The notes below the pieces were generated by a model that saw only the letters and a program-made list of their open reading frames with translations, searched no databases and had not been told where the DNA came from. This document shows positions 38 through 2,697 of a stretch of 9,560 nt of DNA, piece by piece (within the stretch, counting starts at the first letter, position 1; each line of letters starts with the position of its first letter). Origin of the DNA: a virus (Duplodnaviria > Heunggongvirae > Uroviricota > Caudoviricetes); IMG/VR virus record IMGVR_UViG_3300029070_000029; one strand, given 5' to 3'. The translations under genes were made by a program, and so were the position numbers.

Positions 38-2416
38 ATGGCAGCAGTAAAAATCTCAGGTGTGCTGAAAGATGGTGCGGGAAAACCAATACAGAACTGC
101 ACTATTCAACTGAAGGCAAAGCGTAACAGCACCACGGTACTGGTGAACACGGTGGCCTCTGAAAATCCGGATGAAGCCGGGCGTTACAGCATGGATGTTG
201 AGTATGGTCAGTACAGCGTCACCCTGCTGGTTGAAGGTTTTCCGCCTTCACATGCCGGGACCATTACCGTCTATGAAGGTTCCAGACCAGGTACGCTGAA
301 TGATTTTCTCGGTGCCATGACGGAAGATGATGTCATGCCGGAGGCATTGCGTCGTTTTGAGGCAATGGTGGAAGAAGCGGCACGCAACGCCGAAGCCGCC
401 TCTCAGAGCGCAGCAGCGGCAAAGAAATCCGAAACTGCAGCGGCATCATCGAAGAACGCGGCGAAAACCTCAGAAACAAATGCAGCTAACAGCGCACAGG
501 CGGCAGCGTCCTCGCAGACTGCATCGGCAAACTCCGCGACAGCAGCCAAAAAATCAGAAACCAACGCGAAAAATAGCGAGACAGCCGCAAAGACGAGCGA
601 AACCAACGCAAAGTCCAGCCAGACGGCAGCGAAAACAAGCGAAACGAATGCCAAAGCCAGTGAAACTGCGGCAAAAAACAGCCAGGTTGCAGCAGCCCAA
701 AGCGAGAGCGCGGCAGCCGGTTCTGCGACTTCAGCAGCTGGATCAGCAACTGCTGCGGCTAACAGCCAGAAAGCTGCGAAGACGAGTGAAACTAACGCAA
801 AGTCCAGCCAGACGGCAGCGAAGACCAGCGAAACGAATGCCAAAGCCAGCGAAACTGCGGCGAAAAACAGTCAGGATGCAGCAGCCCAAAGCGAGAGTGC
901 TGCAGCTGGTTCTGCAAGCGCGGCGGCTGCTTCTGCCACTGCATCAGCCAACAGTCAAAAAGCAGCAAAAACCAGTGAAACCAATGCAAAGACAAGCGAG
1001 ACTGCAGCGGCGAACTCGGCGAAAGCATCCGCTGCAAGCCAGACCGCTGCAAAAGCAAGTGAAGACGCAGCCAGAGAGTATGCAAGCCAGGCAGCAGATC
1101 CGTATAAATATGTCTTACAGCCGCTGCCTGATGTGTGGATACCGTTTAACGATTCACTGGATATGATTACGGGCTTTTTGCCATCATATAAAAAGATTGT
1201 TATTGGTGACGACGAAATAACGATGCCTGGCGACAAGATTGTTAAGTTTAAACGTGCATCGAAAGCAACCTATATTAACAAATCTGGTGTGCTGACAGAG
1301 GCTGCCATTGATGAGCCACGATTTGAACGTGATGGCCTGCTTATTGAGGGGCAAAGAACTAATCTTCTGCTTAATTCAACAAATCCATCTAAATGGAATA
1401 AGTCAGGCAATCTGGAACTCACAGAAATATCCACGGATTCTTTTAATTTTACTTATGGGAGATTTACTGTAAAAGATACTCTTATTGGTCAGACAAGTGC
1501 TATTAATATCGTAACGATTTCTGGCAGTAAAGGGTTTGATGTCACAGGTGATGAAAAATATGTGACCATTTCATGCCGTGTAAGAAGTGATGTTGAAAAT
1601 ATAAGGTGTCGTTTAAGATTTGAACACCATGATGGTTATACTTACACTTTTTTGGGAGATGCTTACCTCAATTTATCAACACTTGTAATTGATAAAACTG
1701 GTACTGCTGCAGACCGTATTATTGCAAAGGCTGTAAAAGATGAGGTTACTGGTTGGATTTTCTATCAGGCTACAATTAATGCACTAGATACAGAGAGCAT
1801 GATTGGTGCGATGGTTCAATACGCTCCTGTAAAAGGTTCAGGTACAGCATCTGGAGACTATCTGGATATCGCAACTCCACAAGTGGAAGGTGGATCAAGT
1901 GCTTCGTCATTTATTGTAACTGATATAACTGCAAGCACTCGCGCAAGCGATATGGTGACAGTCCCAATCAAGAATAACCTTTATAATCTTCCTTTTACGG
2001 TTCTTTGTGAGGTACATAAGAACTGGTATAAAACGCCAAATGCAGCACCGCGTGTTTTTGATACCGGCGGTCATCAAACCGGAGCGGCTATTATTCTTGG
2101 CTTCGGTCGTTCAACAGATTACGACGGATTTCCTTATTGTGATATAGGTTTGGCTAACAGACGGGTAAACGAAAACGCATCGCTTGAAAAAATGGTTATG
2201 GGGATGCGTGTAAAGTCAGATCAGTCTACGTGCTCAGTAAGTAACGGGCGTATATCTAGCGAAAAGAAAGCCACATGGTCCTATATTCAGAACTCCGCAA
2301 TTATCCGTATTGGAGGCCAGACTACAGCCGGGTTGCGTCATTTATTTGGTCATGTCAGGAATTTCAGAATATGGCACAAGGCATTGACTGATGCTCAGAT
2401 GGGGGAGTCAATCTAA
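38..2416 (+). CDS. stf: Lambda-like side tail fibre protein: conserved N-terminal attachment domain, repeat-rich shaft, lectin-like C-terminal tip
   Basis: Track ORF 32..2416 starts at GTG 32 directly after the terminator T-run; I prefer ATG 38, which has GGAG at 29-32. The N-terminus (MAAVKISGVLKDGAGKPIQNCTIQLKA...GRYSMDVEYGQYSV...FPPSHAGTITVYE...TLNDFL) matches my recollection of the lambda Stf N-terminal domain. Residues ~120-350 are Ala/Ser/Thr/Lys-rich repeats (AAKTSETNAKSSQTA...). The C-terminal ~440 aa are visibly lower in GC and end in ...NFRIWHKALTDAQM, which resembles the terminal strand of ConA/LamG-type jelly-roll domains. No search was run. Confidence 0.85.
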   Translation: MAAVKISGVLKDGAGKPIQNCTIQLKAKRNSTTVLVNTVASENPDEAGRYSMDVEYGQYSVTLLVEGFPPSHAGTITVYEGSRPGTLNDFLGAMTEDDVMPEALRRFEAMVEEAARNAEAASQSAAAAKKSETAAASSKNAAKTSETNAANSAQAAASSQTASANSATAAKKSETNAKNSETAAKTSETNAKSSQTAAKTSETNAKASETAAKNSQVAAAQSESAAAGSATSAAGSATAAANSQKAAKTSETNAKSSQTAAKTSETNAKASETAAKNSQDAAAQSESAAAGSASAAAASATASANSQKAAKTSETNAKTSETAAANSAKASAASQTAAKASEDAAREYASQAADPYKYVLQPLPDVWIPFNDSLDMITGFLPSYKKIVIGDDEITMPGDKIVKFKRASKATYINKSGVLTEAAIDEPRFERDGLLIEGQRTNLLLNSTNPSKWNKSGNLELTEISTDSFNFTYGRFTVKDTLIGQTSAINIVTISGSKGFDVTGDEKYVTISCRVRSDVENIRCRLRFEHHDGYTYTFLGDAYLNLSTLVIDKTGTAADRIIAKAVKDEVTGWIFYQATINALDTESMIGAMVQYAPVKGSGTASGDYLDIATPQVEGGSSASSFIVTDITASTRASDMVTVPIKNNLYNLPFTVLCEVHKNWYKTPNAAPRVFDTGGHQTGAAIILGFGRSTDYDGFPYCDIGLANRRVNENASLEKMVMGMRVKSDQSTCSVSNGRISSEKKATWSYIQNSAIIRIGGQTTAGLRHLFGHVRNFRIWHKALTDAQMGESI
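585..915. repeat. Tandem direct repeat inside the stf shaft: two ~142-bp near-identical segments with a 189-bp (63-codon) period
   Basis: 585-726 and 774-915 align base for base at a 189-nt offset with only scattered substitutions (for example aagacgagcgaaaccaacgcaaagtccagccagacggcagcg versus aagacgagtgaaactaacgcaaagtccagccagacggcagcg). They encode AAKTSETNAKSSQTAAKTSETNAKASETAAKNSQ(V/D)AAAQSESAAAGSA twice. More diverged copies of the same ~13-15 aa unit lie on both sides (about 400-1075). Confidence 0.8.
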
Positions 2417-2697
2417 TGAAAGATTTAACACTCAAATTTGCAGACAGGGCCGACTTTTCGGCCTTTATGGATAGCATTGGCTATTATGATGACGAGTCGA
2501 TGCAGGATGATATTCTTATTGACGTGATAGGTAACGTGTACAAAGAAACCGGAGAACTGACTGAAGATGGCGAACCGGTATGTGTTAAGGAAGATGGATA
2601 TTTTGTAAACGTGCGCATCATTAATGATGCAAAAAAATCGTTAATATTCGATGAATACGCGGTTGTAGTTGAACATCAACTTCGTGGCTGGATGTGA
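2416..2697 (+). CDS. Small strongly acidic protein of unknown function, translationally coupled to stf
   Basis: Track ORF of 93 aa. Its ATG overlaps the stf stop (TAATG at 2414-2418). By my count it has 21 Asp+Glu against 9 Lys+Arg. I recognise no family; it does not resemble lambda Tfa as I recall it. Confidence 0.55.
   Translation: MKDLTLKFADRADFSAFMDSIGYYDDESMQDDILIDVIGNVYKETGELTEDGEPVCVKEDGYFVNVRIINDAKKSLIFDEYAVVVEHQLRGWM

What the first reader, a model, noticed from the sequence alone, without database searches (positions are those of the whole stretch)
2416..2697. Strongly acidic 93-aa protein translationally coupled to the tail fibre gene
Its start codon overlaps the stf stop (TAATG), so it is co-translated with the fibre. 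It has about 21 acidic against 9 basic residues and does not resemble lambda Tfa as I recall it. It could be a novel fibre assembly chaperone matched to the lectin-like tip, or a DNA-mimic-like anti-restriction moron of the Ocr/ArdA style. I cannot assign a family from sequence alone.
Basis: inference. Interest (0 to 1): 0.5.

Follow-up and report, generated by a model that had tools for sequence, protein, structure and literature searches.

The report
Partner protein of lectin-headed tail fibres
This small, very acidic protein is a real but unstudied phage gene that always travels with one kind of lectin-headed tail fibre, so it is most likely that fibre's dedicated assembly helper and should be kept when such fibres are moved between phages.

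Summary
ORF 2416-2697 encodes 93 aa (21 acidic, 9 basic, pI 4.2), and its ATG overlaps the stf stop (TAATG). It is under purifying selection and is present in 990 of 5426 complete E. coli genomes, always annotated as hypothetical.

It matches no Pfam, NCBIfam, PADLOC or PDB family, only phrog_1361 (unknown function). It is unrelated to Tfa or Ocr.

In every locus I inspected it directly follows a fibre gene ending in a CBM-like plus LamG-like head. These loci cover phage-21-like lambdoids, Drexlerviridae, Dhillonvirus, T5-like and rV5-like phages, and metagenomic relatives. The fibre N-termini differ between groups.

In Vequintavirus, head and small gene swap as one cassette: rV5 gp41 ends in an S74 intramolecular chaperone and has no small gene, while EmilHeitz has the lectin head plus the small gene.

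My best reading (0.55, inferred from context only) is a trans-acting assembly partner of the basic LamG-like head. It may stay bound and help dock the optional downstream fibre. The DNA-mimic idea is not supported.

This looks like a new family in a known role. Interest is moderate.

The parts
32..2416 (+). stf, the side (lateral, 'proximal') tail fibre, 794 aa. It has a lambda-Stf-type N-terminus (PF08400), an Ala/Ser-rich repeat shaft and a C-terminal lectin-type head.
   Evidence: It matches phrog_1419 end to end, PF08400 at E 1e-66, and NF048003 at residues 437-638.
1124..2413 (+). The portable fibre C-terminal module (Stf residues 365-794) that always accompanies the small gene.
   Evidence: It is 45-64% identical to the fibre C-termini of tinuso, IrisVonRoten, Ioannina, mEp460 and EmilHeitz, whose N-termini are unrelated to each other. 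The same holds in distant metagenomic loci.
1364..1903 (+). A hypervariable CBM-like beta-sandwich domain (Stf about 445-624), the probable glycan-binding specificity domain.
1904..2413 (+). A basic LamG/ConA-like C-terminal domain (Stf 625-794) ending in the conserved motif IRIGGQT..G.RHLFGHVRNFRIWHKALTDAQ. This is the proposed binding partner of orf93.
   Evidence: There is a weak Laminin_G_3 match (E 0.019), and the distant relative in L087 passes Pfam's threshold. The motif is kept in all 13 lineages. The domain has net charge +1 to +7 and pI 7.7-10.3. AF2 could not fold it as a monomer, with pLDDT about 27.
2401..2407 (+). A Shine-Dalgarno-like GGGGGAG inside the last stf codons, 8 nt before the orf93 ATG.
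   Evidence: Read directly from the sequence.
2416..2697 (+). orf93, the finding: a 93-aa acidic protein of family phrog_1361, translationally coupled to stf.
2707..3411 (+). orf234, an optional short second ('distal' or branch) fibre. It has a conserved N-terminal motif MATSTVIPGDITTLK (2707-2751), a coiled coil, and an S74 intramolecular chaperone domain (residues 116-172, nt 3052-3222).
   Evidence: Peptidase_S74 at E 4.4e-6. It matches the C-terminus of phrog_3299, and its N-terminus matches phrog_4563. A 346-aa allele has the same N-terminus. The motif is shared with tinuso, Iris, APCEc03 and SP15. The gene is absent from phage 21 and mEp460.
3422..3715 (+). orf97, a small membrane protein (phrog_1443) and the last gene of the operon. 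It is conserved next to the cassette in phage-21-like prophages, and I do not think it belongs to the fibre machinery.
   Evidence: DNA is 97.6% identical to phage 21 from window position 3410 onward.

Best explanation
orf93 is the dedicated accessory protein of a portable tail-fibre head module. It is translated by coupling from the same mRNA as the fibre finishes, so it appears beside the nascent fibre C-terminus.

I propose that it binds the conserved, basic LamG-like C-terminal domain of Stf and allows the head and the trimeric shaft to fold and register. That would be the same job done in cis by S74 intramolecular chaperone domains, or in trans by Tfa, for other fibre alleles.

It probably recognises conserved features of the head and not the variable glycan-binding surface. 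It may remain bound in the virion, where the head-orf93 complex could be the docking site for the N-terminal motif of the optional downstream fibre (orf234).

Shown: the gene is real, conserved, acidic, coupled to the fibre gene, and linked in both directions to this head module. Inferred: binding, chaperone activity and presence in the virion.
For: 1. Linkage across unrelated phages. Homologues (22-52% identity) directly follow a fibre with the same C-terminal module, although each group has its own fibre N-terminus. This is seen in phage 21 and mEp460 (lambdoid), tinuso (Drexlerviridae), Ioannina (Dhillonvirus), IrisVonRoten, APCEc03 and SP15 (T5-like) and EmilHeitz (rV5-like). The six metagenomic relatives whose contigs were fetched, including the most distant one used (31% identity), show the same arrangement. 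All 13 fibres end in RHLFGH[IV]RN[FL]RIWH.

2. The linkage runs both ways. The LamG-like tail is found in 205 phage records and the small gene in 179, with the same organism mix. The two sampled 'extra' T5-like records do carry a divergent family member (hhalign 98-99%). The third sampled record, D2, has a fibre cut by an IS element.

3. Cassette exchange. rV5 gp41 and the EmilHeitz fibre are 90% identical over residues 1-1049. DNA homology then stops at L002:4512 and resumes at 6335, 2 nt after the small gene's stop. The rV5 allele ends in Peptidase_S74 (E 6.6e-15) and has no small gene. The EmilHeitz allele ends in the LamG-like head and has the small gene. A published cryo-EM study shows the same kind of swap, an S74 end in MaxBurger against a lectin-like head (D69) in EmilHeitz (PMC12143355).

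4. The gene occupies the chaperone slot. No Tfa or intramolecular chaperone accompanies these fibres, whereas a lambda-type fibre in the same prophage family carries its own Tfa (L070).

5. It is independent of the downstream gene. Phage 21, mEp460, EmilHeitz and the P0191 locus lack the second fibre but keep the small gene.

6. Charge complementarity. The small protein has net charge -8 to -17 in 28 members. The LamG-like domain has +1 to +7 in 13 lineages.

7. Expression and structure. The stop/start overlap is present in 84 of 85 loci. dN/dS is 0.27. AF2 gives a compact alpha/beta domain (pLDDT 84) with a lower-confidence, conserved C-terminal R-x-W-A/M tail, which is typical of a docking peptide.
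Against: There is no experimental or structural evidence of binding, and I had no multimer prediction available.

In E. coli prophages the protein is far more conserved than the fibre head. This is unlike the head-matched C-terminal domains of Tfa proteins (from my own knowledge of that family, not tested here). It would fit a structural subunit or joint equally well.

The N-terminal motif of the second fibre was found in enterobacterial phages only immediately downstream of the small gene, which hints at a docking role.

Lectin-type beta-sandwich heads often fold without help.

AF2's failure on the LamG-like domain may only reflect a shallow alignment in which every sequence is at least 68% identical to the query.
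Confidence: 0.55

Rival explanations
1. orf93 is a permanent structural subunit, a 'kneecap' or joint at the end of the proximal fibre. Its main job would be to dock the N-terminal motif of a second (distal or branch) fibre such as orf234 or IrisVonRoten Gp24, giving a branched or two-segment fibre. It would not be a folding helper.
For: The motif M.T.T.IP.DI[TK].LK at the start of the third gene is conserved in the window, L041, tinuso, Iris, APCEc03 and SP15, and survives as a frameshifted remnant in Ioannina. In enterobacterial phage records it was found only just downstream of the small gene.

The small protein is conserved while both flanking receptor-binding regions vary, as expected of an adaptor between exchangeable modules.

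Published models place Gp24 on the end of Gp22 in IrisVonRoten and leave Gp23 unexplained, although its GenBank record calls it 'tail fiber protein'.

The weak best fold hit is to an adaptor domain, MecA.
Against: The small gene is retained where no second fibre gene follows, in phage 21, mEp460, EmilHeitz and the P0191 locus. The Vequintavirus cassette contains only the fibre head and the small gene. A joint role therefore cannot be its only or primary function. No virion proteomics or cryo-EM density has been assigned to it.
Confidence: 0.25
2. orf93 is a DNA-mimic anti-restriction moron of the Ocr/ArdA type, carried next to the fibre gene by chance.
For: Only the strong, conserved negative charge supports this: 21 acidic residues of 93, net charge -8 to -17 across the family.
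Against: No Pfam, NCBIfam or PADLOC hit.

The gene is translationally coupled inside a late fibre operon and is linked to one fibre head in six or more phage groups. An independent moron would not show that pattern. By my own knowledge, anti-restriction genes are typically expressed early.
Confidence: 0.02
3. orf93 has some other fibre-linked role that is neither folding nor docking. For example, it could be a cytoplasmic mask that keeps the lectin head from binding host glycans or aggregating before assembly, or a regulator of fibre deployment that is released on maturation.
Against: O-antigen and capsule ligands are not present in the cytoplasm where fibres assemble. There is no precedent that I know of. 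Nothing in the data specifically favours this over a chaperone role.
Confidence: 0.1

Closest known systems
Lambda/Mu/P2-type tail fibre assembly proteins (Tfa, gpU, gpG; Pfam Caudo_TAP PF02413)
   Same: Both are encoded immediately downstream of the fibre gene, travel with the fibre C-terminal module during recombination, and are made in trans. Neither accompanies fibres that carry an intramolecular chaperone.
   Different: There is no sequence relation (no Pfam hit; hhalign 0.7%). orf93 is about half the size, 93 aa against 201 aa for the Tfa in L070. Its predicted fold is different. It is more conserved than the fibre head it follows, whereas Tfa C-terminal domains co-vary with their fibre (my own knowledge, not tested here).
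S74 intramolecular chaperone domains (PF13884) of T5 pb1, K1F endosialidase, DT57C LtfA/LtfB and rV5 gp41
   Same: It occupies the equivalent position at the C-terminal end of the fibre coding unit. In Vequintavirus the [head + orf93 homologue] cassette replaces an allele that ends in S74 (PMC12143355).
   Different: orf93 is a separate polypeptide and not a cleaved C-terminal domain. It shows no sequence or fold similarity to S74. The neighbouring orf234 does carry an S74 domain.
T4 gp57A and gp38 (and T2/S16 gp38 adhesin)
   Same: These are small accessory proteins needed for fibre assembly. T2/S16 gp38 stays on the fibre tip.
Branched or two-segment lateral fibres of T5-like phages (DT57C LtfA/LtfB; IrisVonRoten Gp22/Gp24)
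   Same: The operon layout is the same: proximal fibre followed by a second fibre with an S74 domain. IrisVonRoten Gp22-Gp23-Gp24 is the direct counterpart of the window's stf-orf93-orf234.
   Different: DT57C LtfA ends in S74, and the paper describes no small gene between ltfA and ltfB. The published IrisVonRoten models do not assign a role to Gp23.
MecA C-terminal adaptor domain (PDB 3pxi), the best structural match
   Same: Both are small alpha/beta sandwiches; 64 residues superpose at 2.5 A.

Membership tests
phrog_1361 (phage protein family of unknown function) | Full-length profile match | tested here: met
   E 3.6e-46, residues 1-93 against profile positions 1-92 of 92.
Tfa / Caudo_TAP tail fibre assembly proteins | Profile match to PF02413 or to a lambda-type Tfa sequence | tested here: not met
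   No Pfam family at E <= 1. hhalign of the 28-sequence family alignment against the Tfa in L070 gives 0.7% probability, with 7 residues aligned.
Tfa / Caudo_TAP tail fibre assembly proteins | Encoded directly downstream of, and inherited together with, the fibre C-terminal module | tested here: met
Tfa / Caudo_TAP tail fibre assembly proteins | Required for fibre trimerisation or solubility | not testable with these tools
   This needs co-expression or deletion experiments.
Ocr / ArdA DNA-mimic anti-restriction proteins | High density of surface carboxylates | tested here: met
   21 of 93 residues are acidic, pI 4.17. This is conserved across the family.
Ocr / ArdA DNA-mimic anti-restriction proteins | Sequence or fold relation to Ocr (all-helical dimer) or ArdA | tested here: not met
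Ocr / ArdA DNA-mimic anti-restriction proteins | Early, leading-region or otherwise fibre-independent genomic position | tested here: not met
   The gene is always translationally coupled to a late fibre gene.
Ocr / ArdA DNA-mimic anti-restriction proteins | Inhibition of type I restriction enzymes | not testable with these tools
   This needs a restriction-protection assay.
S74 intramolecular chaperone (PF13884) | Profile match and a position at the C-terminus of the fibre polypeptide | tested here: not met
   There is no hit in orf93 or in Stf. The domain is present in orf234 and in rV5 gp41.
T4 gp38 / gp57A chaperones | Sequence or structural similarity | tested here: not met
MecA C-terminal domain-like fold | Significant structural superposition | tested here: inconclusive

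The most novel reading that the evidence does not exclude
The small acidic protein founds a new class of tail-fibre accessory that is both chaperone and permanent joint. It would fold the LamG-like head and then stay on it as a universal socket. Any second fibre carrying the roughly 15-residue N-terminal motif (M.T.T.IP.DIT.LK) could plug into that socket, giving a plug-and-play branching system shared by lambdoid, T1-like, T5-like and Dhillonvirus phages. Published fibre models would then have missed a subunit (IrisVonRoten Gp23).
Probability: 0.25. Interest if true: 0.6.

Novelty: new variant of a known kind. Interest (0 to 1): 0.45.

Why it matters
Lectin-headed lateral fibres of this type are widespread. 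The small gene is in 18% of complete E. coli genomes and about 200 sequenced coliphages. Related fibres are thought to recognise O-antigen and set host range (PMC11990801).

If the small protein is required for their assembly, three things follow:
- Host-range engineering that grafts these heads onto lambda, T5 or other chassis must carry the small gene with them.
- Structure atlases and AlphaFold models of these fibres, such as IrisVonRoten Gp22/Gp24 and EmilHeitz RBP_10, are missing a component.
- There would be a third, structurally unrelated way to get a trimeric fibre to fold, alongside Tfa-type proteins and S74 domains.

It would also give a function to a common 'hypothetical protein' (phrog_1361).

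Tried and rejected
Searches that found nothing or only weak matches:
- Pfam, NCBIfam and PADLOC scans of orf93 gave no hits.
- PDB sequence searches with the single sequence and with the family profile gave only chance hits at E above 0.1.
- Foldseek against viral models returned only uncharacterised small phage proteins.
- hhalign against Tfa and Ocr gave no relation.

- The afdb50 fold library was not available.
With the closer alignment it found only 3 loci, all of Escherichia type.
- AF2 of Stf 365-794 as a monomer modelled only the CBM-like domain. The LamG-like part stayed at pLDDT about 27, so I could not inspect its surface.

Literature:
- Searches for a described function found nothing on the small protein.
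- I first suspected it was the LtfA-LtfB connector of DT57C-type branched fibres. The DT57C papers describe no such gene, and LtfA there ends in S74.

Ideas rejected:
- A gp38-like adhesin role, because the protein is much less variable than the fibre head.
- A Cor/Llp-type superinfection-exclusion role, because the protein is soluble and acidic and I saw no signal peptide or membrane segment on reading the sequence (not run through a predictor). The neighbouring orf97 is the membrane protein.
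Full report
**Observation.** The ORF at 2416-2697 (+) is exactly as described. It encodes 93 aa, and its ATG shares one base with the stf TAA (TAATG). An SD-like GGGGGAG lies 8 nt upstream. It has 13 D + 8 E against 6 K + 3 R, pI 4.17 and net charge about -12.

It is a genuine gene. It matches phrog_1361 end to end at E 3.6e-46. It has 228 database clusters, all named 'hypothetical protein' or 'prophage protein'. Among 38 distinct prophage alleles, median dN/dS is 0.27 in frame against 0.74-0.94 in the other two frames. The gene occurs in 990 of 5426 complete E. coli genomes, up to 5 copies per genome. Across 85 loci the stop/start overlap is kept in 84: ATGA in 48, TAATG in 36, and adjacent in 1. 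No promoter-like or terminator-like site lies in 1800-4000.

**Where the window comes from.** The neighbourhood is stf, orf93, orf234, orf97, then sitDCBA on the other strand, then an icd 3' fragment and an iraM-like gene. Classical lambdoid phage 21 (OL657228, Jouyvirus) has stf, a 92-aa homologue, a membrane protein and sitDCBA in the same order. From window position 3410 onward the window is 97.6% identical to it. The window is therefore the right end of a phage-21-like prophage at icd. E. coli IAI39 is the closest complete genome at 97%.

**What the protein is not.** It has no Pfam, NCBIfam or PADLOC family. It has no relative among PDB sequences, whether searched with the single sequence or the family profile.

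**The decisive evidence is genomic.**

*Linkage across phage groups.* Homologues at 22-52% identity occur in lambdoid phages (phage 21, mEp460), Drexlerviridae (tinuso), Dhillonvirus (Ioannina), T5-like phages (IrisVonRoten, APCEc03, SP15) and rV5-like phages (EmilHeitz). In each they overlap or abut the stop codon of a fibre gene. The last 430 or so residues of that fibre are homologous to Stf 365-794, while the fibre N-termini are specific to each phage group. The six metagenomic relatives whose contigs I fetched, down to 31% identity, show the same arrangement. All 13 fibres end in the motif IRIGGQT..G.RHLFGH[IV]RN[FL]RIWH.ALTD.Q.

*Linkage in both directions.* The last 170 residues of Stf hit 205 phage records and the small protein hits 179, with the same organism mix. 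I sampled three records that had the fibre tail but no small-protein hit. Two have a divergent 87-88-aa family member in the expected place (hhalign 98-99%). The third has a fibre truncated by an IS element.

*A natural swap defines the unit.* rV5 gp41 and the EmilHeitz fibre are 90% identical over residues 1-1049. DNA homology stops at L002:4512 and resumes at 6335, two bases after the small gene's stop. The rV5 allele ends in a Peptidase_S74 intramolecular chaperone (E 6.6e-15) and has no small gene. The EmilHeitz allele ends in the LamG-like head and has the small gene. The RBPseg study reports the same kind of exchange, an S74 end in MaxBurger against a 'lectin-like head D69' in EmilHeitz, and confirms it by cryo-EM without mentioning the small gene (PMC12143355). 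So the cassette [lectin head + small gene] substitutes for [receptor domain + cis chaperone].

*No other chaperone is present.* No Tfa accompanies these fibres. A lambda-type fibre elsewhere in the same prophage family brings its own Tfa.

The last 170 residues give a weak Laminin_G_3 match. A distant relative passes Pfam's threshold for the same family. This LamG-like domain is basic in all 13 lineages (net +1 to +7, pI 7.7-10.3), whereas the small protein is acidic in all 28 members.

Within E. coli prophages, fibre residues about 455-755 are hypervariable, falling to 10-40% identity. Residues 335-450, the last 40 or so residues and the small protein stay conserved (small protein 90-100%). 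The small protein is therefore not matched to the specificity surface. If it binds the head, it binds conserved elements.

**The downstream gene.** orf234 is a short fibre with an S74 domain. Its N-terminal motif M.T.T.IP.DI[TK].LK is shared with a 346-aa allele in other prophages and with the second fibres of tinuso, IrisVonRoten, APCEc03 and SP15. It also appears as a frameshifted remnant in Ioannina. Among enterobacterial phage records, wherever I cross-checked positions, the motif lay immediately after the small gene.

Published work models IrisVonRoten Gp24 as a T-shaped distal fibre mounted on proximal fibre Gp22 (the Stf counterpart), and assigns no role to Gp23 (PMC11990801). However, phage 21, mEp460, EmilHeitz and the P0191 locus keep the small gene without any such second fibre. 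Docking therefore cannot be its only role.

**Interpretation.** Best supported (0.55): a trans-acting assembly partner of the LamG-headed fibre module. It is delivered beside the nascent fibre C-terminus by translational coupling, and fills the slot taken elsewhere by S74 domains or Tfa. It possibly remains bound as part of the socket for the optional second fibre. Every step beyond linkage is inference.

The main rival (0.25) is a purely structural joint. A generic 'other head-binding role' gets 0.1. The DNA-mimic idea (0.02) rests on charge alone and is contradicted by fold, position and linkage.

**Comparison and novelty.** In function the protein works most like Tfa or an S74 domain, but it fails every sequence and fold test for membership of those families. 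It belongs only to the unannotated phrog_1361. I rate it a new variant of a known kind: a new family in the fibre-accessory role. Interest is moderate. It is not surprising that a fibre has a helper, but this one is common, unrecognised, missing from current fibre models, and practically relevant to fibre engineering.

Noticed in passing
window 2707-3411 (orf234); L041 5292-6332: The gene after orf93 is a short fibre with an S74 intramolecular chaperone domain. After self-cleavage it would leave only about 115 residues of coiled coil. Other prophages carry a 346-aa allele with the same first 15 or so residues but a different middle part. That N-terminal motif is conserved across lambdoid, Drexlerviridae and T5-like phages.
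   Followed up: partly
window 3422-3715 (orf97): A 97-aa protein that looks like a two-TM membrane protein (phrog_1443, unknown function). It is the last gene of the fibre operon, is conserved in phage 21 and mEp460, and lies just before the sit cargo. It could be a superinfection-exclusion or moron gene.
   Followed up: no
window 3807-7256 (- strand): sitDCBA, an iron/manganese ABC transporter, is carried as prophage cargo directly after the tail-fibre operon, exactly as in phage 21.
   Followed up: partly
window 8184-8336 and 8439-8762: A 50-codon duplicate of the icd 3' end (Iso_dh match) is followed by a 107-aa ORF that I recognise from memory as IraM-like. This marks the prophage/chromosome junction at the icd attachment site, which I recall being used by phage 21 and e14.
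   Followed up: partly
window 7257-8180, e.g. ORF 7450-7689: About 900 bp lie between sitA and the icd fragment. The region has only a 79-aa ORF with no Pfam family, and its content is unexplained.
   Followed up: no
window about 370-1100 (Stf residues about 115-355): The fibre shaft is made of Ala/Ser-rich repeats of the type KTSETNAK..SQTAA. Related prophage fibres range from about 686 to 805 aa, so the fibres differ in length. I did not check whether repeat number accounts for this.
   Followed up: no
window 1904-2413 (Stf 625-794): AF2 gave pLDDT about 27 for the whole LamG-like domain, although it is strongly conserved, while the neighbouring variable domain folded with confidence. The cause could be a shallow alignment, or a real need for a partner or a trimer.
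   Followed up: no
L004 5256-5346 (phage Ioannina): The 'intergenic' gap after the small gene encodes MVTKTNIPADIRR*, a frameshifted copy of the second-fibre N-terminal motif. The annotated start of the next gene therefore probably reflects a frameshift or a sequencing error.
   Followed up: partly
L099 (phage D2, OM475427) 2501-5088: The homologous side tail fibre is truncated by three 'mobile element protein' genes (an IS element) and no small gene follows, so this is a naturally disrupted cassette.
   Followed up: no
phage records MG0656xx ('Campylobacter phage') and OR84xxxx ('Listeria phage'); L094 ('Collinsella' MAG): Records labelled as Campylobacter or Listeria phages, and a Collinsella MAG contig, carry near-identical E. 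coli phage fibre cassettes. They are probably mislabelled or contaminant sequences.
   Followed up: no
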